Positions 9,173 through 36,828 of a stretch of DNA of 38,251 nt are shown here, in pieces (within the stretch, counting starts at the first letter, position 1; every line of letters begins with the position of its first letter). The stretch comes from a candidate division WOR-3 bacterium (GTDB lineage: Bacteria > Hydrothermota > Hydrothermia > B15-G9). A program made the position numbers and the translations under genes. Below the pieces are notes generated by a model. The model did no database searches. It was not told where the DNA came from and worked only from the letters and a program-made list of their open reading frames with translations. The stretch spans positions 1 through 38,251 of the forward strand of contig JALVZN010000044.1 of NCBI GenBank assembly GCA_027037615.1. Direction: 5' to 3'.

Positions 9173-9261
9173 GGCGGTAAAACTATAAGGAAGAAGTCAG
9201 CCGTGTTCCAGCCGCAGGCCTGACATTACGGCGGACTGCCCGTTACCTTAAAATTTTGAGT

Positions 9262-20702: not shown

Positions 20703-20761
20703 AAGCTGTTCTCAAACCATTTACCATATAATTACCCGATAGGTTGAGAAAGGAGGCGATT

Positions 20762-23700: not shown

Positions 23701-25225
23701 CGGCGTCAGCTCAACCAGTTTCGTCCTGCCTGAAGTCAGCGAGATGAAAGACGCAAGTTGCAGGGTGACATTGGCTTCAGGTTACATCACCGTCGCAATG
23801 GCCGCGCTCCCCTACCTCAGAGGATACCCTTACGGCTGCGTTGAGCAGACTATGAGCCGATTTCTGCCCGACATAATCGTCAAAAGCATCGCTTCACGAT
23901 ACGGCATAAGGGTCGAGAACGAGGACGAGCTGGAGAAGATGATAAACATGGGCTTGAAACGGTTATACAGCTATCAGCACTACGACGGAGGCTGGGGCTG
24001 GTGGCAGTTCGACGACAGCGAGGATGAGATGACGGGCTATGTGATGTGGGGACTTGCGCTCGCCAGAATGAACGACATCGAGGTGAACCCATCGGTGATA
24101 GCTTCGGGGCTGTCCTACATCAAGGAGCGCGTGGGCTCCGATATCGATGACGGCGGCCTCGTGGATCTGCTGTTCGCATACTCCTATTACGACACACTGA
24201 CAGACGAAATGATCGACAATCTGCGCGATGTCTCGTTCAGCAACCTGACGCCTGTGCAGGAGGCCAAATTCGCAATCCTGACACATAAGCTCGGCATGGA
24301 CGACCTCAGCAAAGCCGCCCTGGAAGCGCTTGAGGAGGACAGATACCAGCTGTGGGAATACGAATGGATTCCTTACGACGAACTCTCGCTTGCATGGCGG
24401 ATAATGGCTTACAGTCAAACAGGATTCCGCCCGGTCGAACGGATGCAGGCCGTTGCGGACACGCTGATATCGATGCGGAAAGGCCCGAGATGGAGCTCAA
24501 CCCTCACAACCGCATACAGCGTCATGGCGCTCTCGGATTTGAGCCAGAAGTTGAACGAACGGGCCAAAAAATCCACCGTCACGCTGAAAGTTAACGGCCA
24601 TGAGATTTTCAAGGGCGAGATCGGAAATGGTGAGGTCAAATCGATAGATGTGCCGCTGGGCTACCTGAAGGGCGACACAAACACACTGACGCTCAAGAGC
24701 AAGCGGGTAAAGAGCTTCGCCTCACTCACGGTCTCGTGGTTCAGTGGGAAATACCCGATCAAAGCCCGTTCTGCGCCTGAGTTAAGCATCAAAAAGGAGC
24801 TGTATCAGCTCGATTATCGCAAAAAGGGCAGGGAGTGGGTGGCCTACGAAACGCCGATCCGCTCAGGCTCATCCATAAGGCCGATGTCGAGGATGAAGGT
24901 GAGGTTGACCATCATCGCAAACAAGGACATCGGGCGGATTATCGTGGAGGATCCCGTGCTGCCCGGAGCCGAGATCGATGAGAACGACTTGATGCGCAGA
25001 TACATCTACGATTATTGGGATTCGCCGATAGTTGGGATGGAACGAAAAAATGACCACATAGCGTTCGCCGTCCCCTACATCAATGAAGGCGACACCGTCA
25101 CGGTGGAGTATGTGGTGATGCTCCAAAACAAAGGCGTTTTCCATCTCATGCCGGCGGTGGCTTACGGGATGTATATGCCGCAATCGAGAGCAAATTCGAG
25201 AGAATACCTGATAAAAGTGCATTGA
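20762..25225 (+). CDS. Bacterial alpha-2-macroglobulin family protein with an intact thioester motif
   Basis: MG-domain signature YVYTDRPIYKPGHTVYINGILR, FSIAVVDEAIY, DLAFWRANARTNGRGEAVIRFRLPDNITQWRVTVKAF, thioester GYPYGCVEQTM (CVEQ at 23837-23848) and YQHYDGGWGWW. I place the start at ATG 20762, with AAGGAGG 6 nt upstream. The track's TTG at 20744 overlaps that RBS. 1,487 aa. Confidence 0.92.
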   Translation: MVAQLLAFYLIGVPTVALNSTPGPSPEVTLFIEGEAQNIVHFRLYEVPDPESYLLESYRQGYMPKNAVGLKNNGVSSTYAAIKRETRTFRYWLREVMSYPYRSATVQALDLKSMEVKTYDTNKKLPPLNGFRLIKEWDLPTPIVSYSDDITIPGMDTLPERLYLLETSYSGVTTYIPVLKTTLFSEFKVGRGRYLLFLTDSASNPIPGARVAVIENRKRAIKGVTNPDGIAEFSRGDSIRTLMAVFVTEDNRVSVCGDYSYGWFTSNEARMKAYVYTDRPIYKPGHTVYINGILRKQRGFGYRNAPNRYVILKVSRGWGETELLNDTLMTDEFGAFNDSLVLPDNAKLGSYYIEVEYDDEEIGYRSFEVQEYVKPEFKVSISTDGKKFVSGDEIHITVSAEYIFGAPLKGGVAELVVTKMLPWWYYYNGASDYQTIFRGSNELNDMGKTSFKLEVPLDSIPYNYRLVATVTGPDGRKISSSKWVQVYPSSYVPNIRLDKFIYTDDDTAFTARVTVHDIDGNPISTNVKLTLYRGWRRKEQLKEAQFATDEDGEAQITMPLPQWPDDYFVVVKVTDPRGRQMIASEWFYRANSRYRWWSWSGGLELKVDRDTVSNGDSITAVATAQTPKGKMLMTLVAGDTIIAYDVVDIKNHIATIKLPVPKGVNGWIRLAVEIGGQKPDIASKGILVVDSSKMLNVRIETEGKEFEPGSEITLKVKITDFEGRPAKAEFSIAVVDEAIYQLKKDNSGDIFANFYMRYQDGWLWSFNSTYFTFYTDRSIDLTELAKRNESSAEAIAQFKEAAPSQTPVRAKFKDLAFWRANARTNGRGEAVIRFRLPDNITQWRVTVKAFTKDTRLGQATHKFYARKRVFVTVAPPRYLTVGDTIEIPTTIHNFMSAQMEFKVDVKTDGLKLLREGPISVRVPSQGSKVILWTAVAETPGSASVQATASTFRASDAVRISFPIKQYGLQMSVARNVEARDGVSSTSFVLPEVSEMKDASCRVTLASGYITVAMAALPYLRGYPYGCVEQTMSRFLPDIIVKSIASRYGIRVENEDELEKMINMGLKRLYSYQHYDGGWGWWQFDDSEDEMTGYVMWGLALARMNDIEVNPSVIASGLSYIKERVGSDIDDGGLVDLLFAYSYYDTLTDEMIDNLRDVSFSNLTPVQEAKFAILTHKLGMDDLSKAALEALEEDRYQLWEYEWIPYDELSLAWRIMAYSQTGFRPVERMQAVADTLISMRKGPRWSSTLTTAYSVMALSDLSQKLNERAKKSTVTLKVNGHEIFKGEIGNGEVKSIDVPLGYLKGDTNTLTLKSKRVKSFASLTVSWFSGKYPIKARSAPELSIKKELYQLDYRKKGREWVAYETPIRSGSSIRPMSRMKVRLTIIANKDIGRIIVEDPVLPGAEIDENDLMRRYIYDYWDSPIVGMERKNDHIAFAVPYINEGDTVTVEYVVMLQNKGVFHLMPAVAYGMYMPQSRANSREYLIKVH

Positions 25226-26808
25226 TGACCGCATTCTGGATAATCGTTTTGCTCGCGCAGGGTGTCCGTGTCAGGGTGCTGGCGTCACGAGATGTAGGAG
25301 AGCTGGTCGTGTCGCACGCAATGATGGTGGACGGCGCGGACACCCTGAAATTCCGTTCCCTCAAATTCAGAGCAAGAAGCGGTTATGTCGTCTGGGGGAA
25401 CAGGATATCGAAGAAAGTAACTATCTTGCCTTTGCGCAGGGCATTATCGATAGATTTCGATGGTGAGACCCGTCGCTACACGGGCAGACTTGAGCTCACA
25501 GCCGAAGGCGATAAGCTGGTGCCGATAAACATCGTAAATCGAGGGGACTACCTTGCCTCAGTGGTCGGCTCCGAGATGACATCGAACGCCCCCATCGAGG
25601 CGCTGAAGGCTCAGGCCGTGCTCGCAAGGACTTTCGTGCTCAAATTTCGCGAAAAGAAGCACGCGGGATTTAATTTCTGCGACCTCACCCACTGCATGCA
25701 TTACAACGGCAGCGATGCGATAACGCCTGCCACTTCCAGAGCCGTCAGGGAAACCGAGGGCATCGTCCTCGTCGCTTCAGATGGCACACCTGTCGAGCCA
25801 TACTTCTCCGCATCAAACGGGGGTAAGATCGACCTCCCGTCAAAGGTGTGGGGCACAGACGATCCCGATTACCTCAGGTCGAAAGATGACCCTTTCTCGG
25901 CAACTGCCACCGACCGAAACCGCGTCTGGAGGACGGAAATTCCGGTTTCAAAGATAGAAATGGCTTTCGGAATTACAGGGCTGATCGACATTGAAGTCGA
26001 TACGATGTCGTCGCCCATGATGGTGGAGCTCATCGGAAACACAACGATGAGGATTCGAGCCGCAGATTTCAAAATCAGGCTGAACCGTGCCATCGGATGG
26101 AACAAAATCAAATCCGTTAGGTTCTCAGCTCGCAGGCACGGCTCGAAATATGTCTTTGAAGGCAAAGGGCTCGGGCACGGCATAGGGCTGTCTCAGGCTG
26201 GAGCCATCGAGATGGCGCTCAGAGGCTACACTTTCGAGGAAATACTGCATTTCTACTTCCCCGTCGCGTGGCTCCGAGAAGGGAACTCATCGTTTCTCTA
26301 TCGCGGAAGGATAACCGAAAAGGTGCACTCCGACCTCAAACAGGCTCTCGCAGATGTCGAAAACTCCCTCTCCCTCAGGCATTCATCCCCGATTTACATC
26401 GTCGAATTCAAATCCGTCGGGGAATTCACGGCCGCCACAGGTCAACCGTGGTGGAAAGCGGCCGTTACGGTGGGAGATACGATTTACATCCAGCCTTTTG
26501 AAATTTTGCGCAAACGGGGTATCTACTCCGAGACGATGAGGCGAGAGCTCTACCATGTGATTCTCAACCAGCACGACATCGAACTGCCATTGTGGTTGAG
26601 AGAAGGGGTTGCCACACTGCTGTTCGGGAGCCGCCAATCGGTGGGCGGTCAGATTCCGCCGCCTCAGAGAGTGGAATTGATGCTCAGGTCAAATGACAAA
26701 GAGGAATTCAGGCGCGGCTGGGTCTATTCCGCCGCACTTGCAGAGAAATATTTGTCCAACAGGGACATAAAATCTATTTTGAGTTCAAAGCAAACTGGAG
26801 GTATGTAA
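25225..26808 (+). CDS. SpoIID/LytB-domain protein with a C-terminal degenerate MA-metallopeptidase-like domain
   Basis: SpoIID signature DYLASVVGSEM...EALKAQAVLARTFVL...CDLTHCMHYNG...YFSASNGGK. The C-terminal part contains RELYH (26542-26556) and LPLWLREGVATLLFG. Its ATG overlaps the A2M TGA in TGATG. Confidence 0.85.
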   Translation: MTAFWIIVLLAQGVRVRVLASRDVGELVVSHAMMVDGADTLKFRSLKFRARSGYVVWGNRISKKVTILPLRRALSIDFDGETRRYTGRLELTAEGDKLVPINIVNRGDYLASVVGSEMTSNAPIEALKAQAVLARTFVLKFREKKHAGFNFCDLTHCMHYNGSDAITPATSRAVRETEGIVLVASDGTPVEPYFSASNGGKIDLPSKVWGTDDPDYLRSKDDPFSATATDRNRVWRTEIPVSKIEMAFGITGLIDIEVDTMSSPMMVELIGNTTMRIRAADFKIRLNRAIGWNKIKSVRFSARRHGSKYVFEGKGLGHGIGLSQAGAIEMALRGYTFEEILHFYFPVAWLREGNSSFLYRGRITEKVHSDLKQALADVENSLSLRHSSPIYIVEFKSVGEFTAATGQPWWKAAVTVGDTIYIQPFEILRKRGIYSETMRRELYHVILNQHDIELPLWLREGVATLLFGSRQSVGGQIPPPQRVELMLRSNDKEEFRRGWVYSAALAEKYLSNRDIKSILSSKQTGGM

Positions 26809-26810
26809 CC

Positions 26811-28172
26811 ATGAAAAAGGTGATAACAGTCACAATCATCGTGGCCGCACTCACAGCGGCTTTATACAGTTATTTGCAGCCTCAGGAGTTGAAAAGGAAG
26901 GACATATCGAGCGATTTTGAGCTGCTCCCGGCCGAAAACATCAAGAGCGTCGTCGTCCTGCCGTCATTCGACAGGACGCTTGAGCTGGTCGGGACGAAGG
27001 AGTGGTTCAAAGAGGCCCAATCGAACGGGCTTATGGACGATTTTTTCGATTATCTCGCATTCAGGCTGAACATCGGCGGCCTGCCGTCAAAGGCGCTTAA
27101 GCTTTTCCACGGCAAACTGTTCTGGGATCTCATCGGCGATGGCGCACTGGTCGCAACATACGACAACGGCGAGAAGATTTACATCACGCACCCGAAAGAG
27201 CATGTCCAGATGGCATGGCGCAGCATTCTGAAAGAGGGGCAGGAATTCCGCCATTCCGGCCTGCTTTACTCGAAGCTGGGCCAGTCCTACATCAGTTTTG
27301 TCGGAAACCTGTTTGTGGCGACCACATCTGAGCCGAAGATGTGGGCCGTGCTCGAACGAATGACCAAAAAGATGCCGTCGATGGCAGAACAGATGAGCCC
27401 GATGAGCGGGGTTTACGCTTACGGCATGGTGGAAGGGGACGGTGTGCTTCTGCGCGGAAAAATCGAGTTCAAAGTCAATGAAAACGGCCTGACAGCGGAT
27501 ATGCGCGACATCGACGGGGTTATCGGTGCGCCTCTGAGGACTGCCAAACCGTTCGGAAAACTTCTTCTGCCCGACGGGACAACGGCGGTGATTGGGTTCA
27601 AGAAGATCGATTTTTCCGAGAGCGAGGATTTTCTCGCAAACAACTTCCCGAATTACACGAATTCGTTGAGCGAAAACGGGATCAAACCCATCTTTCCGCT
27701 TCTGAAAGGCAAGCTAAAGCTCATCGTGGCGGGGTTTACCGAGGACTACTACGCCGTTCCGGAATTCGCATTGAGCATGCAGCTGAGCAGAAAGGGGCGA
27801 AAGGCAATTCGCGATGTCATGGGCGGCTACATCTCGGACGATCAGTCGCTTCTCAGCTGGGGCGTGGAATCGAACAACCTGATTTTGTGGAACGAGCAGA
27901 CGCTCAAGAACATGCTCAAAAGCTCGCGTGGCAAAACTGTCTCAAAACGCAACCTGATAGCCGTTATAGACATGGACGCAGTCTCGCGCAACATCTTCGA
28001 CTACATGATGCATGTGTCGAGATATTCCGAGTTTGTAAGCGCAAACGCACTCAGGAGCAAGGTCGCCAATGTCGTCCGCAAGATGATCAAAGGCCGCGCA
28101 GTCGTGCTCATGAGCCATCCTGACAAAAACGATGTGCGGATAGAGTTTCTGACAAGCCAATCGGCGCGCTAA
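26811..28172 (+). CDS. Membrane-anchored protein of unknown function
   Basis: It has a single N-terminal TM or signal anchor (VITVTIIVAALTAALYSYL). The remaining roughly 430 aa have no motif I recognise. The ATG is 2 nt after the SpoIID-domain stop. Confidence 0.6.
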   Translation: MKKVITVTIIVAALTAALYSYLQPQELKRKDISSDFELLPAENIKSVVVLPSFDRTLELVGTKEWFKEAQSNGLMDDFFDYLAFRLNIGGLPSKALKLFHGKLFWDLIGDGALVATYDNGEKIYITHPKEHVQMAWRSILKEGQEFRHSGLLYSKLGQSYISFVGNLFVATTSEPKMWAVLERMTKKMPSMAEQMSPMSGVYAYGMVEGDGVLLRGKIEFKVNENGLTADMRDIDGVIGAPLRTAKPFGKLLLPDGTTAVIGFKKIDFSESEDFLANNFPNYTNSLSENGIKPIFPLLKGKLKLIVAGFTEDYYAVPEFALSMQLSRKGRKAIRDVMGGYISDDQSLLSWGVESNNLILWNEQTLKNMLKSSRGKTVSKRNLIAVIDMDAVSRNIFDYMMHVSRYSEFVSANALRSKVANVVRKMIKGRAVVLMSHPDKNDVRIEFLTSQSAR

Positions 28173-28318: not shown

Positions 28319-28347
28319 TTGCCACGGTATTAAATTTTGGTTATAAT
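28319..28347 (+). promoter_or_regulatory. Near-consensus sigma70 promoter for the giant gene (TTGCCA-N17-TATAAT)
   Basis: TTGCCA at 28319-28324, an exact 17-nt spacer and TATAAT at 28342-28347. The predicted 5'-UTR is about 85 nt. Confidence 0.65.
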
Positions 28348-28438
28348 GGCGCTTAGAAACCAACCCACCTGAAGAGGGACAGGATAAAGTCATACCCGCC
28401 ATCCTCTCTCTTTGAAGGTGAAAGGAGGGAAGGGAGTT

Positions 28439-31400
28439 ATGAACAAGTCCAGATTTTTGGTCGCCTTCATGGCGATCGTCGTCGCTTTCCCTGCTTTCAT
28501 ACACGCCGAGCTGACATCCGTCGAATACAAAAGGGATGTTTACTACAACTCCGATCCGCAGAGCGGCGCGCCGCTCGATGTTGACTACCATACGCCGGGC
28601 ATCACCTCCATCTCCATGCTGCAACAGGACAGGTTGCACCTCTATTTTCAGGCAGGGACAACGCCCTACTATTTGAAGGGCGGAATAAGGGTTAAGTTCA
28701 TCTGGGACACTGATTCAGCTGGTCCCGGGAACAGGTTTTCTGTAAAAGTCGTTGCGGAGACCGATTCAGCGTTTCAGGGGAACCCATACTTTGGAGGTTC
28801 TCACGAGATCTATTCCAATTACGGGGTTCAGGTAGGCGTTACAGATGAGGCAAGGGTTCTGGAACTGCATTATGGCGTTCTGACATGGGGAGATTGGATG
28901 GAAACACTTGTGGGGCTGGGCTTTGACTTATGCATAAACATGCGTGGCGATGGGATACTGCCAATGGAAAGCGAATCGCTCACCGCCGGGGATGAGGTCA
29001 CCCTCGTTTCAATCGGTGCCGATATGTTAGCAGGGGAGAAAGCTTTGAAGGATAGGCATGGGAATCCCATCAAGGACGACGCGGCATCATCTGTCCTGGG
29101 GTTATTGAACCTTGTGAGTCTCGGCATGAGCAACTACTACAAACTCCAAGACGGCCGCATATACTTAGAGATTGAACCCGTCTGGCCGTTTTACTACGAT
29201 CCGGCTTATGGCAACAACAGTCAGCATGTCTGGATGCACAGGGGCGACACAGTCGTGTTGCATCTCGCCGTCGATCCCCTTGCGACAAACAACGATACCG
29301 GCTACTTCAGGATACTCTCCAACGGATATGTTGAGGAGGACATCTACTACAGGCAGGCGATACATGTGGGTTTCCTGTGGTGGGATGAGGATGTTTACAC
29401 GGAGCCTTGGTTCCCGTTGAGGAACGGGACGGTCGCCCTGATGTTAGATGACGATTTCCCGCTCATACCCGTCCCGTTAACAGGGGAAAGCCATTCACAC
29501 GCAGACCTTTACATAGACACTGAATATCTATCCGTGTGGAACACAAGGTATCTGGGCGGATATGTCTCACTGACGCCAACTCCTCAGGTAGATGGCTGGA
29601 CAGGCGTCGGAATTAAAGTGAAAAACAAGGGCAACATCACATCGACAGGTTACACAATAAAGTTCGTGTTTCCCGATAGCGTCAAAACTGAGCACAGGGA
29701 CGGCAACATACCGCCGGGCGGACACGATGATGTCTCAAAAGTGAGTCCTCAATGGACGCAGACGGGCGTGTCCCCGATCTCGATTATCATCATACCTGAC
29801 CCGACCAATCACGACCCCAATCCGCACAACGACACGCTGAACTTCAATGTCTTTGTCCGTAAGCACACGATTCCGGTGCTGGTGGCCATCGTGGATGAAG
29901 CAACTGGCGATACCATAACGCCTTCCGATTCGGTCTTTGGCCGCGTATGGGCGACGAACAACCAGAACTATTTTGAGCGCGGCGTCCCCGATACAACCTA
30001 CAACGGCTGGGACAGGTGGCTGTTGATGGTGCCAGAGGGGGAAGCGGTCACCATCACCGCTTTTCCAGATTCCAATCACCAAAATATTTACACATCAAGC
30101 AAATATGTCGATGTGGATACCTTATCGTCAGAACCTCTATGGGTTTACATCAGGCTATGGGGATGGGGATCCGTTGAGGGCACCGTCACGGACGAGAGCG
30201 GGGCGCCGATTGAGTCCACTCTGGTGTCGGTGGGGCCTTTTTACACATGTTACACCGACCAGAACGGCCATTATCTGATTGAACACCTGCCATCAAACCA
30301 CCTTTTGACAAACTCACCCTATTATGTCAGTTTCTACGCTCCGGGATACCGCATCGACAGCATCCCGTTCCATATCAACAACTCAGAGACAGCACATATC
30401 GACCACCAGATGGCGGACATAGACACGATCCCGCCATACGGAGAGATCAGCTGCTCGCCTGTTGTTCCAAAGACGCTCACGATAAACCTAACCGCAATGG
30501 ATACATTCACCCAATTTGGCGATACCCTGCCTCCGACGAAGGTCATGATCAAGGACAACAACTCATCGTGGCATGAATACGATTACGGGACGGGTTTTGA
30601 CAAATCCATAACATGGACGGTTCACACAAGCACTTCCCATACGGAGGTTGACACGATTTTTGCAAAGTTTGAGGACAACGCTGGAAACATATCGGACAGC
30701 ATCATGCAGGTCGTAACAGTGGCTCAAGACCCGCCTGAGGGCACCTTCACGATAAACCACGGCAACAGCAGCACATCAAATACGGATGTCATGATCACAG
30801 ATGTGACGATCACCTCAAGCGCCGTAGGTGTGCGGGACATAACGATCACCGAAGATGGCGGCGATAGCGTGACTTACAACTACTCGGAGGGGGCGGAATA
30901 TCCGTTCTCCATCACTGCAACCGCCGGCTCTCACACGGTCTGGGTCACTTTCAGGGATTCGTTTGGCCTGACATCACAGCCTGTGCCAGGCGCCATAGAG
31001 CTCGAATATTCAGGGAGGGTGTCGATAAACAACGGTGCACAATACACCAGATCAACCTCAGTTGACCTATCGATCGAGGCGAGCTCCTTTTTGGTCTCAA
31101 ATGTGAGTGGTGACAACATGTTCGGCGGCCACCCTCTGGCTCAATCGTTCGTGCCGCATGCCGACAGGATTTACGGGATCAGCGTTTACTTAATGGGCGC
31201 AGATTCAGGCCTCAAAATCGGGATTTACAGGGATTCCGTGGCCGGCAATACCCATTTGCCCGGCCGCATGCTCGTGCTGGATACCCTGAACTATGACCCT
31301 CAGGCTGGATGGGTAACAATTCCCTACCCCTCGCCCATTTTAGTCGATCCAGACAGGAGTTACATGATAGTCCTATTTCAGACTACGCTCGACGGCGTAT

Positions 31401-34400
31401 CGAATGACCTCTATGTGGAAGCGGGGCCATCGAACAACTATTCCGAAGGGGATCTCTACTTCTATCCGTCATACAGAAAACGGCCGACGGATGACTGGTA
31501 TTTCTCGGGCTATGACATGGTTTTCAGGGTTCTGGGACGGGCTGACGGGATGGAGATCTCGAACTACGAGGATTTTCACAATTCAACGGGTTTGATCTCT
31601 TTCAGTCCCTCTTATTCGGGCTGGGAACTGCTTCCCGGTGACGGATTGAAAAGGGTCTATGTGAGGATAACGACGGGCAGCAATGTCTCGACGGTCCACG
31701 ACGCCATAATACTCGATCGAGAACCGCCGACCGATGTCTCGGTCTCGATAATGAACCACCTCCCATACCTTGAGACCACGGAGTGCACGCTCAACATCTA
31801 TGCCGTTGATACACTTTCGGATGTGGAAGCTTACAGCGTAAACGATGGCGAATGGCAGGATGCATACCGCCTTCTGCCGATGATCACGGTGCACAATGTC
31901 CAATCGGGTGCTCCCGGGCCAAGGACGATGAGTTTCAGGTTCAAGGACAGGGCAGGCAACATAAGCGATCCCACTTCCGTGACCATCGATTATGACCCGG
32001 ACGGCCCTCAAGCGTCGGTAAGGCTTGGAAACAACGGATTTTCGCCATCGGAAACTGTCGGAGTCCATATCTCTCTCGCAAAATTCAACGGAAAGTCGAT
32101 AACGGTTGACAGCATGAGGTTTGCGTCGGGGCACCGTATGGAATGGGGCGAATGGATGCCTTTTAAGGCCGATACATCTTACATCTTCGACAAAGGCGGG
32201 AATGTTGGGCTATGGGTCGCATTGAAAGACAATTACCGCAAAACATCGACATTCATCGCAAACTGCGTGATCGACACGACCCCACCCGGTGAGGTTTATG
32301 ATGTGCGAGATGAAGGTCAATCGACCAGAAACCACAGCTCGCTCGCCTTCTGGTGGCAATGCAGAGGGGACTACGAATCCGGGCTCTCGCAATTCCAGAT
32401 AGTCGTATCGACCGATCCGAGTTGCCTCAGCGACATCGTCACGGTTGTCTCTGTGCCTCCGAATGACAGATCCGCTCGCATAGATGTTCCAGGTATGCGC
32501 GGCGACTCAACATATTACGCAAAAATCGTGGCGGTGAACAGGGCGGGACTCTGGAGCCAGAGCGACCCAACCGATGGGATAACCGTCATAAACGGCATAG
32601 TGCAATTCGATTTGATCTCGCCTTCCGACTCAGCCCTTCTGGATAACAGCCAGCCTGTTCAGCTTGTCTGGCACAGCACATCGGACAGCATTTCCGTCCT
32701 GACAGGATACGAAGTCTTTATCGACAATGCATCTTATGGGCTTATCGGGGACACAACGCTTTCGATAGACACGCTTGACGACGGCTGGCACAGCTGGTAT
32801 GTGGTTGCGCACGATAGCCTTGGGGATACCAAAACCTCATCGTCAACATACAGCTTTTATCTCGGTGCGGCGCCGCAAACACCGCTGGCCATCTTCCCGT
32901 CGGACACATTCCTGAACAGCGACACGGTGAACTTCATCTGGAGCTCCGCATCGAAAGCGGCCTTAAGCAACCCATCAGCAATCGGTAAACCGAGATGGGA
33001 AGGCGCGGACGATGGGCTCAAGGGCGCGGACATCTTCACAATCCAGATAGCGACTGACACATCGTTTTCGTCGATCGTGGACTCCGTAACCACCTCGGAC
33101 ACAACCCTATCGCTTGTTATCGGCGAGGGCAGGTGGTTCTGGAGGGTAAAAGCGTCCAATCCGCTCGGCACATCCGACTGGAGCACTACGGCAAGGTTCG
33201 GCGTTGACACGACGGCCCCGACACCGTTTGCGGGCATCTCTCCATCGGCATCCGACACAATTCACAGCGATACGGTGCAGTTCCTGTGGCATAGTTCGTT
33301 CGACAACTTCGGGCTGATCGGATACAGGCTCACCTGCTTCTCTCAGGACACGGCGATAACGGTTTACACAGGCGACACCGCCTCCACCATAGCGCTCAGG
33401 TCAGGTGATTACAGCTGGTATGTCGAGGCGATAGACAGCGCTGACAACATAACCCATTCCGATACCGTAGCTTTCACCGTTGAGGTCATCACGCTTCCGA
33501 CGCCCGTGCTCGTTTCGCCTCAGAACGACACCATCGTCGCCCACACGGATGGGATCGAGTTCGTCTGGCGAACCAGCGGAATTAAAAACGGGTTGGCGGA
33601 CATCGACGGCGCGAAAACCCCGTCATACGGGTTCGTGTTCCAGCTGTCTTCGGATTCGCTATTTCAAAACCCGGTGGTCTGTGACACGCTGACGGACACA
33701 ACCATAACGCTCGACATCTCTGAAGGCCGTTTCTACTGGCGGGTAAGGGCGGCTGATTCGATCGGCCACCTCAGCTACTGGACTTCGGCATGGGAACTGC
33801 TGGCAGATACAACCCCGCCGAATGCGCCCGTTCTGATCTCGCCATCGGACGGTGACACGCTGCATTCCGACACGATCCAGTTTCTTTGGCATGCCGCAGC
33901 CGACAATTTCGGAATTATGTCATACCAGATAAGTTGTTGGTCAGCGGATACATCGCTCTCATTGCAGACTCAGGACACATCGCTTGCCGTCGCCCTGCCA
34001 AACGGCCACTACTCATGGGCGGTCGATGCGGTCGATAGTGCTGGACATTCGACGGCTTCCGATTCCGTTTCATTCACGGTTCGCGTGTTCAACCTACCGA
34101 CACCTGTGCTGATCTGGCCACATAACGATTCCATCTACAATACATTTGAGGTGCCATTCGTGTGGAGCCCGGGGGACGGCAAAAAAGGCTCATCCGATGC
34201 AGGAAAACCGTCGAATTACTACATCCTTGAGGTGTCGAGTGATTCGTCTTTCGACAACATAACCATTTCCGACACATTGGCAGACACATCTGAGACGCTA
34301 TCGCTCTGGTATGGATACGCTTACTGGAGGGTTAGGAGATACGACGACGAGGGCGGACTTAGCGCATGGACAGCCACATGGACGACCGGAGTTGATACCT

Positions 34401-36778
34401 CCCGACCATGGCCGCCCTACCTGGTAAGTCCTCCGACGAGGGATACGATCGACACGAATGTCGTAACCTTCGTGTGGCTGAGATCGCTGGAGCAATTTTC
34501 CGGAGTCGCATACTACCTGTTCAGATACGAATGGTATTGGCAACCGGGGGATAGCGGAAAATATTACGACATAATTGTTTACGACACGACCATCACCCTC
34601 GATAGCCTCCCTCAAGGCCATTATGTTTGGTTCTTAGATGTTGTAGATTCAGCAGGAAACGGCAATTATTTCCCGTCAGACATGAGATCTATTTACATAG
34701 ACTACATCGCCCCGCCCTATTTCGTGGAGCCGACATGGGATGAATGGCAACACGGGAGCGTCAACTTCAGATGGGGGTTCCCGTTCAGTGATACCACCAT
34801 CTCGATACCATACCTGTTCCAGCTGCAGGTCATGGACTCAACCGACTCGATCATATTTGACGGCGTTTCCACATCATACCATTATGGCCTTACCCTCCCA
34901 TCGGGAATTTACAGTTGTCGAGTGAGGGTGAATTCGGCAAGAGACTCATCGGCGTGGTCAGAGATAGACAGCTTCAGGATAGACGACATAAGGCCGTCCG
35001 TGCCTCAGCTGCTGTCGCCTGAAAGCGGAGGCCACATCACATCGTGCCCGGTTCAATTCTCATGGTCGAGCTCAAGCGACAATCTGAGCGGAGTTATGGG
35101 GTACCGACTTCTGATCTCATCGGATCCCGAACTGGGCTCGCCTGTCGTAGATACATTTTTGAGCGATACAACCTTCCTGCTCGACACACTTGCGGATGGC
35201 AGATGGTATTGGCAGATCAGAGTTTCCGATTCTGCAAACAACATCACCGGCAGCGAGGTCGATTCGTTCTACATGGACCTTGCGCCGCTCCCGATACCGA
35301 TCACAACCTCGCCTTCCTATGCCCAATGGCAGCAAGAGGATGTAACGCTCACATGGGAGATCCCATCGGCCGGCCCAAAAACGCAGAAAGGCAAAGGGAA
35401 TCCGTATTCCTTCATAGTCGAGCTGCTGAAGGGCGGCGTGCCCGTTTTCTGCGACACTGTGGCTCAGGAATCGCTTGATGTCACGCTCAAAAGCGGCTAC
35501 TACCATTGGCATGTCAGGACTTATCTCAATTACAGGTCATCCGACTGGTCGCCGATCGACAGCTTCAGGGTGGACGCCGAGGATCCGCCTTACCCCGTTC
35601 TGAAAAGGCCGGTTTACGCAGAGTACATAACCTCACTGCCTTACCAGTTCGTGTGGTCATCGCTGCCCGACACGCTGAGCGGACTGGTCGGCTATCGGCT
35701 TCTGATCTCGGATGACGAATCCATGACAAACCCCGCCATCGACACGATGGTTCAGACCTCAAACTACACGCTCACCGACTTAGACAACGGCGAGTGGTAT
35801 TGGCAGGTGATAGCTCGAGATAGCGCCGGAAATGAAAGTCCGAGCGAGATAGATCCGTTCGTCATAGACACAATTCCGCCTGCGCCCGTCGGACTTATCT
35901 CACCGCAGGACGGGATGATACTTTCTGACCCTCTGGACATCGAATTTTACTGGCATTGGACGGAAAAGCGTAAGCTCGCAGGTTTGAACGGCAAAGGGGA
36001 AGTGTCTTTCGAGCTAAACATCGCCGACTCAATGGACACCCTGGTGATCTCAGAGCTCATCGACACAAGTTATGTCTATGATGAGCTGGACGAAGGCTGG
36101 TATAGTTGGTGGGTCAGGGCTTACGACGAAGCTGGAAACTGGAGCTCATCGGAAGAATGGAGCTTTGCAATTGACACCACATCGCCCCTGATAGAATCGA
36201 CCCATGTGTGGCACGATACGAGTTTCACCGGGCCTTTCGATGTCAGCGCATGGGTTTACGACCTGAACGGATTGAGCGCAATCAGGCTGTTCTACGCATT
36301 CGGCCAGTCGCCGCGCGAATTCGACAGCCTCGACATGGTGCCCGATGCGCATCACAACTTCTACCACGCCCAGATCCCTCAGGTTCAGGATTCCACGATA
36401 GTCAACTACTTCATCTATGCGGCGGACAACGCATGGGAGCCAAACGAAAGCTACGATCCTGAGGACACCATCTACCACTTCAGGGTCATTCCGGAAAATA
36501 TCGAGGAAAGCCACTTCCTGCCGACCGAGTTCGACTTAAAGGTGATCCCGCTACCGCTCACCGACAGGGTCAAGCTCATTTTTGCATCTCCATCAGCGAC
36601 AACGATAAAGCTCTCAATCTACGGCTCAAGCGGCAGGATAGTTTATCGGAAAACCGCACAGGCGACGCCCGGATTTAACACATACGAGCTCAGGCTGAAC
36701 CTGCACAACGGGGTTTATTTCGTCAAAGCGACAGCTGGAAGCAGTGAAATCATCAGGAAATTCGTCATTTTGAGGTAG
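28439..36778 (+). CDS. Giant (2,779 aa) secreted multi-domain surface protein with a T9SS C-terminal sorting domain
   Basis: ATG at 28439 with AAAGGAGGGAAGGGAG upstream; the track's TTG at 28412 lies upstream of that RBS. Signal peptide MNKSRFLVAFMAIVVAFPAFIHA. One uninterrupted 8.3-kb frame. The many ...D.AGN.S... endings are typical of bacterial Ig-like modules. Confidence 0.9.
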   Translation: MNKSRFLVAFMAIVVAFPAFIHAELTSVEYKRDVYYNSDPQSGAPLDVDYHTPGITSISMLQQDRLHLYFQAGTTPYYLKGGIRVKFIWDTDSAGPGNRFSVKVVAETDSAFQGNPYFGGSHEIYSNYGVQVGVTDEARVLELHYGVLTWGDWMETLVGLGFDLCINMRGDGILPMESESLTAGDEVTLVSIGADMLAGEKALKDRHGNPIKDDAASSVLGLLNLVSLGMSNYYKLQDGRIYLEIEPVWPFYYDPAYGNNSQHVWMHRGDTVVLHLAVDPLATNNDTGYFRILSNGYVEEDIYYRQAIHVGFLWWDEDVYTEPWFPLRNGTVALMLDDDFPLIPVPLTGESHSHADLYIDTEYLSVWNTRYLGGYVSLTPTPQVDGWTGVGIKVKNKGNITSTGYTIKFVFPDSVKTEHRDGNIPPGGHDDVSKVSPQWTQTGVSPISIIIIPDPTNHDPNPHNDTLNFNVFVRKHTIPVLVAIVDEATGDTITPSDSVFGRVWATNNQNYFERGVPDTTYNGWDRWLLMVPEGEAVTITAFPDSNHQNIYTSSKYVDVDTLSSEPLWVYIRLWGWGSVEGTVTDESGAPIESTLVSVGPFYTCYTDQNGHYLIEHLPSNHLLTNSPYYVSFYAPGYRIDSIPFHINNSETAHIDHQMADIDTIPPYGEISCSPVVPKTLTINLTAMDTFTQFGDTLPPTKVMIKDNNSSWHEYDYGTGFDKSITWTVHTSTSHTEVDTIFAKFEDNAGNISDSIMQVVTVAQDPPEGTFTINHGNSSTSNTDVMITDVTITSSAVGVRDITITEDGGDSVTYNYSEGAEYPFSITATAGSHTVWVTFRDSFGLTSQPVPGAIELEYSGRVSINNGAQYTRSTSVDLSIEASSFLVSNVSGDNMFGGHPLAQSFVPHADRIYGISVYLMGADSGLKIGIYRDSVAGNTHLPGRMLVLDTLNYDPQAGWVTIPYPSPILVDPDRSYMIVLFQTTLDGVSNDLYVEAGPSNNYSEGDLYFYPSYRKRPTDDWYFSGYDMVFRVLGRADGMEISNYEDFHNSTGLISFSPSYSGWELLPGDGLKRVYVRITTGSNVSTVHDAIILDREPPTDVSVSIMNHLPYLETTECTLNIYAVDTLSDVEAYSVNDGEWQDAYRLLPMITVHNVQSGAPGPRTMSFRFKDRAGNISDPTSVTIDYDPDGPQASVRLGNNGFSPSETVGVHISLAKFNGKSITVDSMRFASGHRMEWGEWMPFKADTSYIFDKGGNVGLWVALKDNYRKTSTFIANCVIDTTPPGEVYDVRDEGQSTRNHSSLAFWWQCRGDYESGLSQFQIVVSTDPSCLSDIVTVVSVPPNDRSARIDVPGMRGDSTYYAKIVAVNRAGLWSQSDPTDGITVINGIVQFDLISPSDSALLDNSQPVQLVWHSTSDSISVLTGYEVFIDNASYGLIGDTTLSIDTLDDGWHSWYVVAHDSLGDTKTSSSTYSFYLGAAPQTPLAIFPSDTFLNSDTVNFIWSSASKAALSNPSAIGKPRWEGADDGLKGADIFTIQIATDTSFSSIVDSVTTSDTTLSLVIGEGRWFWRVKASNPLGTSDWSTTARFGVDTTAPTPFAGISPSASDTIHSDTVQFLWHSSFDNFGLIGYRLTCFSQDTAITVYTGDTASTIALRSGDYSWYVEAIDSADNITHSDTVAFTVEVITLPTPVLVSPQNDTIVAHTDGIEFVWRTSGIKNGLADIDGAKTPSYGFVFQLSSDSLFQNPVVCDTLTDTTITLDISEGRFYWRVRAADSIGHLSYWTSAWELLADTTPPNAPVLISPSDGDTLHSDTIQFLWHAAADNFGIMSYQISCWSADTSLSLQTQDTSLAVALPNGHYSWAVDAVDSAGHSTASDSVSFTVRVFNLPTPVLIWPHNDSIYNTFEVPFVWSPGDGKKGSSDAGKPSNYYILEVSSDSSFDNITISDTLADTSETLSLWYGYAYWRVRRYDDEGGLSAWTATWTTGVDTSRPWPPYLVSPPTRDTIDTNVVTFVWLRSLEQFSGVAYYLFRYEWYWQPGDSGKYYDIIVYDTTITLDSLPQGHYVWFLDVVDSAGNGNYFPSDMRSIYIDYIAPPYFVEPTWDEWQHGSVNFRWGFPFSDTTISIPYLFQLQVMDSTDSIIFDGVSTSYHYGLTLPSGIYSCRVRVNSARDSSAWSEIDSFRIDDIRPSVPQLLSPESGGHITSCPVQFSWSSSSDNLSGVMGYRLLISSDPELGSPVVDTFLSDTTFLLDTLADGRWYWQIRVSDSANNITGSEVDSFYMDLAPLPIPITTSPSYAQWQQEDVTLTWEIPSAGPKTQKGKGNPYSFIVELLKGGVPVFCDTVAQESLDVTLKSGYYHWHVRTYLNYRSSDWSPIDSFRVDAEDPPYPVLKRPVYAEYITSLPYQFVWSSLPDTLSGLVGYRLLISDDESMTNPAIDTMVQTSNYTLTDLDNGEWYWQVIARDSAGNESPSEIDPFVIDTIPPAPVGLISPQDGMILSDPLDIEFYWHWTEKRKLAGLNGKGEVSFELNIADSMDTLVISELIDTSYVYDELDEGWYSWWVRAYDEAGNWSSSEEWSFAIDTTSPLIESTHVWHDTSFTGPFDVSAWVYDLNGLSAIRLFYAFGQSPREFDSLDMVPDAHHNFYHAQIPQVQDSTIVNYFIYAADNAWEPNESYDPEDTIYHFRVIPENIEESHFLPTEFDLKVIPLPLTDRVKLIFASPSATTIKLSIYGSSGRIVYRKTAQATPGFNTYELRLNLHNGVYFVKATAGSSEIIRKFVILR
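29590..29865 (+). other. CARDB-like module within the giant protein
   Basis: GVGIKVKNKGNITSTGYTIKFVF...IPPGG...ISIIIIPDPTNHDPNPHNDTLNFNVFV follows the V.V.N.G...IppG...D...E.NE.NN pattern of CARDB domains. This is a by-eye call. Confidence 0.45.
30160..30385 (+). other. Carboxypeptidase-regulatory-like module within the giant protein
   Basis: GSVEGTVTDESGAPIESTLVSVGPFYTCYTDQNGHYLIEHLPSNH...YYVSFYAPGYRIDSIPF. Confidence 0.5.
32272..32587 (+). other. Fibronectin type III-like module within the giant protein
   Basis: PPGEVYDVRDEGQSTRNHSSLAFWW...GLSQFQIVVSTDP...STYYAKIVAVNRAGLWSQS matches the Fn3 pattern W...Y.......Y...V.A.N.AG.S. Confidence 0.55.
32588..36175 (+). repeat. Six tandem A-B super-repeats (588-620 nt each) encoding alternating roughly 95-aa and 105-aa Ig/Fn3-like modules
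   Basis: A-module starts read from the sequence are about 32588, 33209, 33809, 34397, 34985 and 35576, with the array ending at 36175. Each A module ends in G.YSW.V.A.DSA.N..S. Each B module ends in G..YWRVR..D..G..S.W. The copies are diverged, at roughly 50% aa identity between A2 and A3 by eye. Confidence 0.8.
36520..36775 (+). other. T9SS (Por secretion) C-terminal sorting domain
   Basis: FDLKVIPLPLTDRVKLIFASPSATTIKLSIYGSSGRIVYRKTAQATPGFNTYELRLNLHNGVYFVKATAGSSEIIRKFVILR follows the L.V.P.P....I.F....I.IYD..G..V....L.L..L..GVYFVK.....K..V pattern at the extreme C-terminus. Confidence 0.75.
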
Positions 36779-36788
36779 TGAGCATGAA

Positions 36789-36828
36789 GGCGGCAATTCG
36801 GTTTCACCGAATTGCCGCCGGGCTTTCT
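36789..36828 (+). terminator. Rho-independent terminator of the giant gene
   Basis: A perfect 13-bp stem forms between GGCGGCAATTCGG (36789-36801) and CCGAATTGCCGCC (36807-36819) with a 5-nt loop. GGGCTTTCT follows. It starts 11 nt after the stop codon. Confidence 0.75.

What the first reader, a model, noticed from the sequence alone, without database searches (positions are those of the whole stretch)
28319..36828. Monocistronic 8.3-kb gene for a 2,779-aa T9SS-sorted surface protein, with a near-consensus promoter and a perfect 13-bp terminator
About 22% of the window is a single ORF. It is bracketed by TTGCCA-N17-TATAAT (28319-28347) and a GGCGGCAATTCGG/CCGAATTGCCGCC terminator (36789-36828), so it is an autonomous and probably strongly expressed unit. 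The architecture reads as follows: signal peptide; a roughly 380-aa head with no recognisable motif; a CARDB-like module; a CarboxypepD_reg-like module; several Ig-like modules ending in D.AGN.S; a module reading AQSFVPHADRIYGISVYLMGADSGLKIGIYRD...GWVTIPYPSPILVDPDRSYMIVL; one Fn3; 12 alternating modules; one further domain; and the T9SS tail. The gene sits between the A2M unit and murF. It could be the cell's dominant surface adhesin or an S-layer-like component (inference).
Basis: partly seen in the sequence, partly recalled or inferred. Interest (0 to 1): 0.7.

Follow-up and report, generated by a model that had tools for sequence, protein, structure and literature searches.

The report
Giant surface fibril protein of WOR-3
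This is a real, stand-alone gene for a 2,779-residue secreted protein of an uncultivated WOR-3 bacterium: a long stalk of repeated modules carries a lectin-like domain and a lineage-specific tip and ends in a type IX secretion sorting tag, which makes it an ordinary kind of giant surface adhesin whose tip has no known relatives.

Summary
The ORF runs 28439-36778 (+) and encodes 2,779 aa. TTGCCA-N17-TATAAT lies at 28319-28347 and a 13-14 bp hairpin at 36789-36819.

Pfam and NCBIfam place a type A T9SS sorting domain (residues 2704-2777), an Fn3 and a CarboxypepD_reg domain above their curated cut-offs. Twelve alternating Fn3-like modules fill residues 1390-2583. The "AQSF" module folds confidently (pLDDT 87) as a lectin-like jelly roll. 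It resembles a phage phi812 baseplate protein and the Cwp84 lectin-like domain, and matches DUF4082 only below threshold. The ~330-aa head has about ten relatives among 1.84 billion representative proteins and no structural match.

Orthologues occur only in candidate division WOR-3 MAGs. They sit in different gene neighbourhoods, and each has its own near-consensus promoter and a hairpin or convergent gene after the stop, so the gene is an autonomous unit. Stalk length varies (12, 8 or about 1 module) while the N-terminal region is kept.

At least five independent assemblies agree on 12 modules, and dN/dS is 0.12.

T9SS machinery, expression level and any S-layer role were not tested. Verdict: a new member of a known kind, the T9SS-tagged fibrillar adhesin. 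Interest is modest.

The parts
28319..28347 (+). Sigma-70-type promoter-like site, TTGCCA-N17-TATAAT
   Evidence: 11/12 match. One of 2 such sites in the window against 0.34 expected. Equivalent near-consensus sites lie upstream of every orthologue read. No TSS data.
28364..28420 (+). 5' leader stem-loop ending just before the Shine-Dalgarno sequence
   Evidence: Predicted hairpin in the window, L004, L005 and L002. The window z-score is only -0.65; L004 is -3.6 and L005 is -2.7. RNAalifold on 5 sequences gives 19 pairs, 8 with compensatory changes. No Rfam family. Suggestive only.
28421..28429 (+). Shine-Dalgarno AAAGGAGGG, with its GGAGG core 10 nt before the ATG
   Evidence: Sequence. AAGGAGG is invariant in the six aligned leaders.
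28439..36778 (+). CDS, 2,779 aa plus stop
   Evidence: dN/dS is 0.12 against the 95%-identical orthologue.
28439..28507 (+). Sec-type signal peptide, aa 1-23 (MNKSRFLVAFMAIVVAFPAFIHA|ELTS)
   Evidence: Read from the sequence: basic n-region, hydrophobic core, IHA before E24. No predictor was run. Orthologues align from E24 onward.
28508..29503 (+). Lineage-specific all-beta head, aa 24-355
   Evidence: No Pfam or PDB hit by sequence. Only 10 hits at E<=1e-3 in 1.84 billion representatives. AF2 pLDDT 57, pTM 0.54. No significant Foldseek match in PDB or BFVD.
29504..30169 (+).
   Evidence: Conserved in orthologues. No HMM support: DUF11 E = 1.2. The fold is inferred from sequence pattern only.
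30170..30412 (+). CarboxypepD_reg domain, aa 578-658
   Evidence: PF13620, 34.5 bits against a 32.3 cut-off.
30413..31075 (+). Ig-like modules, aa 659-879 (one ends in FEDNAGNISDS)
   Evidence: Sequence motif. Weak internal similarity of 739-782 to 1163-1206. No Pfam hit.
31076..31573 (+). Lectin-like jelly-roll ('AQSF' module), aa 880-1045
   Evidence: AF2 pLDDT 87.4, pTM 0.84. Foldseek: 9euj_G phi812 baseplate, E = 1e-5, TMq 0.72; Cwp84 lectin-like domain 4ci7, E = 8.5e-4. Pfam Lectin_like E = 0.004 and DUF4082 E = 0.034, both sub-threshold; DUF4082 in 5 of 8 family members.
31574..32299 (+). Ig-like modules, aa 1046-1287 (one OmpL47-type, sub-threshold)
   Evidence: NF047446, 33.7 bits against a cut-off of 40, at aa 1117-1183. 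FKDRAGNISDP motif in the sequence.
32300..32587 (+). Fn3 domain, aa 1288-1383
   Evidence: PF00041, 36.2 bits against a cut-off of 25. It also matches the stalk-module HMM.
32606..36187 (+). Stalk: 12 alternating Fn3-like modules (A and B types), aa 1390-2583
   Evidence: Self-BLAST. Module alignment at 15-51% identity, with B modules carrying a K/G/S-rich loop. HMM count is 12 here, 8 in P0004-6 and none scored in P0009/P0010/P0015, where about one is read by eye. Pfam Big_13 and the DUF4962 N-terminal part.
36188..36547 (+). Pre-CTD domain, aa 2584-2703
   Evidence: Conserved at 45-99% in orthologues. No Pfam hit.
36548..36775 (+). T9SS type A C-terminal sorting domain, aa 2704-2779
   Evidence: PF18962, 33.9 bits against 27, profile positions 3-75 of 75. 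TIGR04183, 35.4 bits against 23. pI 10.5 against 4.4 for the mature part.
36789..36828 (+). Post-stop GC-rich hairpin (13-14 bp stem) with a weak T tail
   Evidence: MFE -29.9 kcal/mol, z = -5.7. Identical in L001, where it is followed by AGGCTTTTCGC. Not listed by the terminator scan.

Best explanation
The gene encodes a giant (298 kDa, pI 4.4) secreted cell-surface fibril of a candidate division WOR-3 (Caldifarciminota) bacterium.

Proposed mechanism:
1. An N-terminal Sec signal takes the protein to the periplasm.
2. The C-terminal type A sorting domain hands it to a type IX-like translocon. As in characterised T9SS cargo, the tag is removed and the new C-terminus is fixed to the outer membrane.
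3. The protein therefore stands on its C-terminal end. The pre-CTD domain and 12 Fn3-like modules form a stalk of variable length.
4. The stalk holds the conserved N-terminal ~1,380 residues away from the cell. This region contains the lineage-specific head, several beta-sandwich modules and a lectin-like jelly roll. It most likely binds a glycan-bearing surface such as a particle, polymer or other cell.

The gene is transcribed alone from its own near-consensus promoter, through a structured leader with a strong Shine-Dalgarno sequence.

Shown: the gene, its domains, the sorting-domain match, the family, the variable stalk and the autonomous unit. Inferred: export route, anchoring, orientation, ligand and expression level.
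For: - Sorting domain at the extreme C-terminus, above the curated cut-offs of PF18962 and TIGR04183. PF18962 is also precomputed for P0001, P0002, P0004 and P0005; the remote relative P0009 has FlgD_ig above cut-off and Por_Secre_tail sub-threshold.
- 12 Fn3-like modules. The count differs between lineages (12, 8, about 1) while head, lectin module and Fn3 are retained. This is the pattern expected of a spacer stalk under a functional tip.
- Lectin-like jelly roll modelled at pLDDT 87, with significant matches to a phage baseplate protein and to the Cwp84 lectin-like domain.
- No invariant His, Cys or Glu constellation in the head across 11 homologues. The conserved positions are Gly, Pro, Asp, Trp, Ser and Tyr, which argues for a binding or structural fold rather than an enzyme.
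- Purifying selection, dN/dS 0.12. The head and module M7 show about threefold higher dS, which indicates recombined, mosaic exposed parts.
- Own promoter conserved in five lineages with different neighbours.
- Acidic, Ser/Thr/Asp-rich composition with 13 Cys in 2,680 residues.
Against: - No T9SS core gene (SprA, PorV, PorU, GldK-N) was seen in the 38-kb window or in about 100 kb of orthologue flanks. This is only a small fraction of a genome.
- Published T9SS distributions do not list WOR-3 (PMC11285876; no co-mention).
- No ligand is known. The lectin-like assignment is by fold, and its Pfam matches are below threshold.
- The head model is poor (pLDDT 57), so its function is open.
- Expression was not measured.
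Confidence: 0.55

Rival explanations
1. It is an S-layer-like or surface-coat structural protein. The molecule would be the main building block of a T9SS-exported surface layer, as TfsA and TfsB are in Tannerella forsythia, rather than a ligand-binding adhesin.
For: - Near-consensus promoter, strong Shine-Dalgarno sequence and a structured ~85-nt leader conserved in orthologues. From my own knowledge, S-layer genes typically have strong promoters and stabilising leaders.
- Acidic, Cys-poor composition.
- T9SS-type CTD.
Against: - At 298 kDa it is much larger than typical S-layer subunits.
- A stalk whose module number changes from 12 to 8 to about 1 between lineages is hard to reconcile with a fixed lattice.
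- No SLH or known S-layer domain was found.
- The architecture of stalk plus tip plus lectin-like domain fits fibrillar adhesins better.
Confidence: 0.17
2. It is a surface-tethered enzyme. The unassigned head would be a new catalytic domain, for example a polysaccharide- or protein-degrading one, presented on a stalk with a lectin-like substrate-binding module, as in many T9SS-secreted hydrolases.
For: - T9SS cargo often consists of hydrolases with Ig, Fn3 or CBM accessory modules (my own knowledge).
- The stalk modules resemble the N-terminal Fn3-like part of DUF4962 heparinase-like proteins.
- The head has several invariant Asp, Ser and Thr positions.
Against: - No catalytic family was detected by Pfam, NCBIfam or PDB profiles.
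- No invariant His, Cys or Glu across remote homologues.
- The predicted head is all-beta with no fold match.
Confidence: 0.1
3. The C-terminal domain is only a T9SS-like Ig fold in a lineage that has no T9SS. The protein would reach the surface or the medium by another route, or stay periplasmic, and the 'T9SS-sorted' label would be wrong.
For: - No T9SS gene in any sequence examined.
- The literature restricts T9SS to Bacteroidota and some FCB phyla and does not mention WOR-3.
- NCBI taxonomy does not place WOR-3 (Caldifarciminota) in the FCB group.
- In the remote relative P0009 the C-terminus scores better as FlgD_ig than as Por_Secre_tail.
Against: - Full-length matches to both curated sorting-domain models lie exactly at the C-terminus.
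- The CTD is retained at the very end of the protein in all complete family members, despite only 26-39% identity.
- It is basic (pI 10.5) while the mature part is acidic (pI 4.4).
- From my own recollection, not tested here, many WOR-3 MAG proteins in public databases carry the T9SS type A sorting-domain name.
Confidence: 0.12
4. It is a gliding-motility adhesin of the SprB/RemA type, moved along the cell surface by the gliding motor.
For: A giant, repetitive, T9SS-tagged surface protein.
Against: - The CTD is type A; no type B (TIGR04131-like) match appeared in the NCBIfam scan.
- No PorP/SprF-family gene lies next to it in the window or beside any orthologue.
- No gld genes were seen.
Confidence: 0.04

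Closest known systems
Fibrillar adhesins (stalk of repeated Ig/Fn3-like domains plus adhesive domain plus cell anchor)
   Same: A long stalk of 12 tandem Fn3-like modules and further beta-sandwich modules. A putative binding region (lectin-like jelly roll and head) sits at the end far from the anchor. Repeat number varies between lineages.
   Different: The anchor is a T9SS-type CTD, not LPXTG or an autotransporter barrel. The tip domain belongs to no described adhesive family. Binding has not been demonstrated.
T9SS type A cargo proteins of Bacteroidota (e.g. P. gingivalis RgpB, HBP35; PF18962/TIGR04183)
   Same: An N-terminal Sec signal and a C-terminal sorting domain of about 75 aa that passes both curated models at the extreme C-terminus. 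The Ig-like CTD is as described in PMC11285876.
   Different: The host is candidate division WOR-3, which is not among the phyla listed as having T9SS. The machinery was not found in the sequence available. The protein is about four times larger than typical cargo and has no catalytic domain.
Flavobacterium johnsoniae SprB (giant repetitive T9SS-secreted gliding adhesin)
   Same: A multi-thousand-residue, highly repetitive, acidic cell-surface filament exported by means of a C-terminal T9SS signal (my own knowledge for SprB).
   Different: SprB uses a type B CTD and a neighbouring SprF partner. Here the CTD is type A and no such neighbour exists. The repeat families differ.
Tannerella forsythia TfsA/TfsB S-layer glycoproteins
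   Same: T9SS CTD-dependent surface proteins, presumably abundant. The promoter and leader features here would suit an abundant protein (my own knowledge for TfsA/B).
   Different: Here the protein is twice the size, has a stalk of variable length, and there is no evidence of a lattice.
Cwp84 lectin-like domain (Pfam Lectin_like PF18560), DUF4082 (PF13313), and phage baseplate or fibre jelly-roll modules
   Same: The AQSF module has the same jelly-roll fold: Foldseek E = 1e-5 to 1e-3, TMq 0.5-0.72. Weak sequence-profile matches point the same way.
   Different: Sequence scores are below both Pfam gathering thresholds. The AQSF(I/V)PH motif is family-specific. No ligand is known for any of these relatives from the evidence gathered here.

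Membership tests
T9SS type A cargo | C-terminal sorting domain matching PF18962 / TIGR04183 at or above the curated cut-off, located at the extreme C-terminus | tested here: met
   PF18962: 33.9 bits (cut-off 27), aa 2704-2777 of 2779, profile positions 3-75 of 75. TIGR04183: 35.4 bits (cut-off 23).
T9SS type A cargo | N-terminal Sec signal peptide | tested here: inconclusive
   MNKSRFLVAFMAIVVAFPAFIHA|E has the n/h/c layout by eye, and orthologues align only from residue 24. No signal-peptide predictor was available.
T9SS type A cargo | Genome encodes the T9SS core (SprA/Sov, PorV, PorU, PorK-N/GldK-N) | not testable with these tools
   None in the window or in the flanks of L001, L002, L004, L006 and L007. 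No literature on WOR-3 and T9SS.
T9SS type A cargo | CTD cleaved by PorU and the mature protein attached to the cell surface | not testable with these tools
   Needs proteomics or biochemistry.
Fibrillar adhesin | Stalk of tandem repeated Ig/Fn3-like domains | tested here: met
   12 modules at aa 1390-2583 plus an Fn3 at 1288-1383.
Fibrillar adhesin | A recognised adhesive or ligand-binding domain | tested here: inconclusive
   Lectin-like jelly roll by structure, but with sub-threshold Pfam scores. The head is unassigned.
Fibrillar adhesin | Cell-surface anchoring signal | tested here: met
   T9SS type A CTD. Anchoring itself is inferred.
DUF4082 (PF13313) | Score at or above the Pfam gathering threshold | tested here: not met
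   14.5 bits against 28.4. 5 of 8 family members hit at E<1, best 0.002. A remote relative at most.
SprB-type gliding adhesin | Type B CTD and an adjacent PorP/SprF-family gene | tested here: not met
   Only the type A model hit. Neighbours are SpoIID, a 453-aa unknown protein and MurF here, and unrelated genes in orthologues.
S-layer protein | Known S-layer or SLH domain, or a demonstrated lattice | tested here: not met
   No such Pfam or NCBIfam hit. Lattice formation is not testable here.
Intrinsic (Rho-independent) terminator | GC-rich hairpin immediately followed by a U-tract | tested here: inconclusive
   The hairpin is strong (-29.9 kcal/mol, z = -5.7). The tail is GGGCTTTCT, which the scan did not list. 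L001 has AGGCTTTTCGC after the same hairpin. P0009's gene has a canonical terminator.
Sigma-70-type promoter | -35 and -10 hexamers with 16-18 nt spacing, conserved in position among orthologues | tested here: met
   11/12 in the window. TTGCTA-17-TATAAT (L001, L006), TTGACA-17-TAAAAT (L004), TTGACA-17-TATAAT (L005), TTGACA-16/18-TATAGA/TAGAAT (L002) and TTGACT-17-TATAAT (L007). The transcription start was not mapped.

The most novel reading that the evidence does not exclude
The ~330-residue head would be a new protein fold or family confined to WOR-3 (Caldifarciminota). It would form the working tip of the main surface fibril of these uncultivated bacteria. The fibril would be exported by a type IX-like system in a phylum where that system has not been described. 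The head and one stalk module would be swapped between strains by recombination to vary the exposed surface.
Probability: 0.2. Interest if true: 0.5.

Novelty: new member of a known kind. Interest (0 to 1): 0.3.

Why it matters
WOR-3 bacteria are uncultivated, and how they interact with surfaces, particles or other cells is unknown. A 298-kDa protein with its own strong-looking promoter is a good candidate for their main contact organ.

If its C-terminal tag is functional, type IX-like secretion extends to a phylum that is not on published lists. The head is a small, clade-restricted family with no structural relatives, which makes it a reasonable target for structure determination.

Beyond that, the finding is a typical giant repetitive surface protein. 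It does not open or settle a long-standing question.

Tried and rejected
- Word-indexed homology searches. Searches with the head alone and with a 7-sequence head alignment returned nothing. Yet the full-length search and the exhaustive HMMER search show that orthologues share the head. I treat as a sensitivity failure of the index, not as absence.
- Head structure. AF2 gave pLDDT 57. Foldseek against PDB and BFVD gave no hit at E<=0.001. The top PDB rows were pore-forming toxins with TM below 0.2, which I reject as an artefact of long modelled hairpins.
- PDB sequence searches. The whole protein and the head profile gave nothing. The lectin profile gave only chance-level 53BP1 Tudor hits at E about 0.6.
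- P0011 and P0012. P0011 is a repetitive protein (sequence read) that matches a short stretch of the head 12 times; P0012 matches 7 times. I reject both as repeat or compositional matches.
- Rfam. No family anywhere in the window.
- Link to cell-wall synthesis. I rejected this because the position beside murF holds only in the closest relatives (L001, L006). L002, L004 and L007 have unrelated neighbours.
- Repeat collapse or chimeric assembly. Rejected.
- Positive selection on the head. Rejected because dN/dS is 0.09 there. The excess divergence is in dS as well, so it indicates recombination. The second comparison used the wrong record, and I ignore it.
- T9SS genes. Not found in any flank. 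This is uninformative given how little of the genome was covered.
Full report
**1. The observation**

The window holds one long ORF on the + strand. With the ATG at 28439 it encodes 2,779 aa and stops at 36776-36778. That is 8,340 nt of 38,251, or 21.8%. The alternative TTG start at 28412 is less likely, because AAAGGAGGG (28421-28429) sits at a normal distance from the ATG.

The promoter-like site TTGCCA-N17-TATAAT is at 28319-28347 as reported, with 11 of 12 matches. Over the whole window and both strands only two sites reach 11/12, against 0.34 expected from Markov-1 simulations.

The inverted repeat GGCGGCAATTCGG/CCGAATTGCCGCC is at 36789-36819. It folds at -29.9 kcal/mol with z = -5.7. 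Its tail is only GGGCTTTCT, which is why the terminator scan did not list it. Calling it a "perfect terminator" is therefore too strong.

The neighbours are as stated. Upstream lie a RodA/FtsW-type gene, a 1,493-aa bacterial alpha-2-macroglobulin, a SpoIID-domain protein and a 453-aa protein with no family match. Downstream, a MurF-type Mur ligase starts at 37167.

**2. Domain anatomy**

Domains above curated cut-offs:
- CarboxypepD_reg, aa 578-658.
- Fn3, aa 1296-1378.
- Big_13.
- The N-terminal Ig/Fn3-like part of DUF4962.
- Por_Secre_tail, aa 2704-2777, 33.9 bits against 27, covering the full profile.
- NCBIfam TIGR04183 "T9SS type A sorting domain", 35.4 bits against 23.

An OmpL47-type domain (aa 1117-1183) is below its cut-off.

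Self-comparison shows a ~100-aa periodicity from aa 1390 to 2583. By hand and by alignment this resolves into 12 modules that alternate between two types:
- A modules carry a D-N/T-F/L-S-G motif.
- B modules carry a Lys/Gly/Ser-rich loop.

The modules share 15-51% identity, and the pairs M3/M5, M4/M6 and M9/M11 are the closest.

Several regions have no Pfam match even at E = 5: the head (24-355), the "CARDB-like" module, the modules between 659 and 880, and the pre-CTD domain (2584-2703). "CARDB-like" is therefore unsupported as a family call.

The mature protein is 298 kDa, has pI 4.4, is rich in Ser, Asp and Thr, and has 13 Cys. The CTD alone has pI 10.5.

**3. The "AQSF" module**

Alone it gives sub-threshold Pfam hits to Lectin_like (PF18560, E = 0.004) and DUF4082 (PF13313, E = 0.034). 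DUF4082 recurs in 5 of 8 family members.

AlphaFold2 on an 8-sequence alignment gave a confident all-beta model, pLDDT 87.4 and pTM 0.84. Foldseek against the PDB found:
- a baseplate protein of staphylococcal phage phi812, E = 1e-5, TMq 0.72;
- the lectin-like domain of Clostridioides difficile Cwp84, E = 8.5e-4;
- then phage capsid and fibre jelly rolls, PHR domains and the furin P domain.

The module is a lectin-like jelly roll. It is not a formal DUF4082 member.

**4. The head**

An exhaustive HMMER search of aa 24-400 against 1.84 billion representative proteins returned 10 hits at E <= 1e-3:
- three orthologues;
- three proteins of ~1,570 aa (P0009, P0010, P0015) that have the same head, lectin module, Fn3 and C-terminal sorting-type domain but only about one stalk module;
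- a 483-aa protein with a head-like domain alone (P0013);
- a 73-aa fragment (P0014);
- two repeat-driven matches, P0011 and P0012, that I discount.

AlphaFold2 with 7 sequences gave only pLDDT 57 and pTM 0.54. The model is all-beta with long strands. Foldseek found nothing significant in PDB or BFVD, and profile searches of the PDB found nothing.

Across 11 homologues the conserved positions are mostly Gly, Pro, Asp, Trp, Ser and Tyr. There is no invariant His, Cys or Glu set. This speaks for a binding or structural domain rather than an enzyme, but the function is open.

**5. Relatives and host**

The full-length search found six orthologues at 95, 87, 53, 46, 47 and 37% identity. All are unnamed MAG or metagenome proteins. 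A scan of GTDB species representatives placed the family in "candidate division WOR-3 bacterium" MAGs. NCBI taxonomy now calls this phylum Caldifarciminota and does not put it in the FCB group.

The window's own protein is in the database as a member of the 95% cluster, on a 38,251-bp NCBI contig.

Stalk modules number 12 in the window, P0001 and P0002. P0003 is truncated and has at least 11. P0004-P0006 have 8, and the ~1,570-aa relatives have about 1, read by eye from their sequences.

**6. An autonomous unit**

In the closest relatives the gene order is the same: RodA, A2M, SpoIID, the 453-aa gene, the giant gene, then murF, mraY, murD, ftsW and murG. In the others the neighbours differ:
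- L004 (56% identity in the head region): the gene lies between divergent and convergent genes.
- L002 (P0006): it follows divergent genes and precedes a Zn-ribbon gene.
- L007 (P0009): again different.

Despite this, each copy has a near-consensus promoter-like site, about 90 nt upstream of the start codon in the window and L004:
- TTGCTA-17-TATAAT in L001 and L006.
- TTGACA-17-TAAAAT in L004.
- TTGACA-17-TATAAT in L005.
- TTGACA with TATAGA or TAGAAT in L002.
- TTGACT-17-TATAAT in L007, there with a short leader.

After the stop codon:
- L001 has the same hairpin as the window, followed by TTTT.
- L002 has a different GC hairpin.
- L007 has a canonical terminator.
- L004 ends against a convergent gene.

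The monocistronic reading is therefore supported by comparison, not just by one consensus match. The link to cell-wall genes is not conserved, and I drop it.

**7. Leader**

Between the promoter and the Shine-Dalgarno sequence, the window, L004, L005 and L002 can each form a long hairpin whose 3' arm ends 1-4 nt before AAGGAGG. Single-sequence z-scores are -0.65, -3.6, -2.7 and -0.9.

RNAalifold on five sequences gives 19 pairs, 8 of them with a compensatory change in at least one sequence. With so few sequences this is suggestive only. No Rfam family matches. A stabilising 5' stem-loop would fit an abundant mRNA, but that is inference.

**8. Integrity and selection**

DNA-level repeats inside the gene are short and diverged, at most 74 nt at 70% identity. 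There are no tandem arrays.

The 12-module stalk is identical in number in at least five separately assembled sequences: the window (P0016), P0001, P0017, P0018, and P0002/P0022. Collapse or chimerism is unlikely.

Against the 95% orthologue, Nei-Gojobori dN/dS is 0.12 overall and 0.03-0.22 by region. dS is about 0.6 in the head and in module M7, against 0.06-0.23 elsewhere. This indicates recombined, mosaic segments rather than positive selection.

**9. Interpretation**

The best-supported reading is a T9SS-type cargo that ends up as a long surface fibril. It would be anchored at its C-terminal end, with a variable Fn3-like stalk presenting a conserved N-terminal region that contains a lectin-like module and a lineage-specific tip. 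In other words, it is a fibrillar adhesin.

The steps "exported by T9SS", "CTD removed and protein anchored", "binds a glycan" and "highly expressed" are inferred.

The main weakness is that no T9SS component was seen in any sequence I could read. In addition, the literature in the library restricts T9SS to Bacteroidota and a few FCB phyla and never mentions WOR-3. The sequence examined is a small part of a genome, so this neither supports nor refutes.

Rivals are an S-layer-like coat protein, a tethered enzyme with a new catalytic head, a non-T9SS fate of the protein, and a SprB-like gliding adhesin. The last is contradicted by the type A CTD and the lack of a SprF-type neighbour.

**10. Verdict**

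Its interpretation is reasonable but goes beyond the evidence on expression, dominance and T9SS machinery. The object is a new member of a known kind.

The parts that are actually new are:
- the small WOR-3-restricted head family;
- the presence of a curated-threshold T9SS sorting domain in a phylum not listed as having T9SS;
- the conserved promoter-leader arrangement.

Interest is 0.3.

Noticed in passing
window 28364-28420; L004 ~9858-9912; L005 ~313-358; L002 ~9947-9985: A long hairpin in the 5' leader ends 1-4 nt before the AAGGAGG Shine-Dalgarno sequence in four diverged orthologues. RNAalifold gives 8 of 19 pairs with compensatory changes, and no Rfam family matches. It may be an mRNA-stabilising or translation-controlling leader.
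   Followed up: partly
window 28508-29503 (head) and 34409-34714 (module M7, aa 1991-2092): Against the 95%-identical orthologue, these two segments have dS of about 0.6, while the rest of the gene has 0.06-0.23, and dN/dS stays low. The M7 of P0001 and P0017 carries LPEGWIGWDIYAYDSAGN, which resembles module M12. This suggests inter-strain recombination or gene conversion in exposed parts.
   Followed up: partly
P0009, P0010, P0015 (L007 10001-14722) and P0013: Short family members (~1,570 aa) keep the head, lectin module, Fn3 and CTD with about one stalk module. A 483-aa protein carries a head-like domain alone. The head therefore behaves as a separable module.
   Followed up: partly
window 19533-28172: A RodA/FtsW-type gene, a 1,493-aa bacterial alpha-2-macroglobulin, a SpoIID-domain protein (overlapping the A2M stop) and a 453-aa protein with no family match form a tight co-directional block just upstream. 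It is conserved in L001 and L006. Here the A2M is paired with SpoIID.
   Followed up: no
window 9256-11382 (+): A 708-aa ORF with a signal-peptide-like start and many glycine-rich 'GDDxY / DxxGxD' repeats, which suggests a beta-helix-like repeat protein. It has no Pfam or NCBIfam match.
   Followed up: no
window 7080-7052 (- strand): The only other promoter-like site with at least 11/12 matches in the window (TTGACA-17-TATCAT). It lies between the PFK gene (7132-8106, -) and the DUF4388 gene (5587-6609, -).
   Followed up: no
L001 21233-23603: In the close relative, three consecutive ORFs of 237-248 aa with no Pfam hit sit between mraY and murD inside the cell-division/cell-wall gene cluster.
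   Followed up: no
(tool behaviour): The word-indexed protein search returned no hit for the head alone or for the head alignment. Yet orthologues with 54-91% identical heads are in that database, and the full-length query found them. Negative results from that tool on sub-sequences should not be read as absence.
   Followed up: yes
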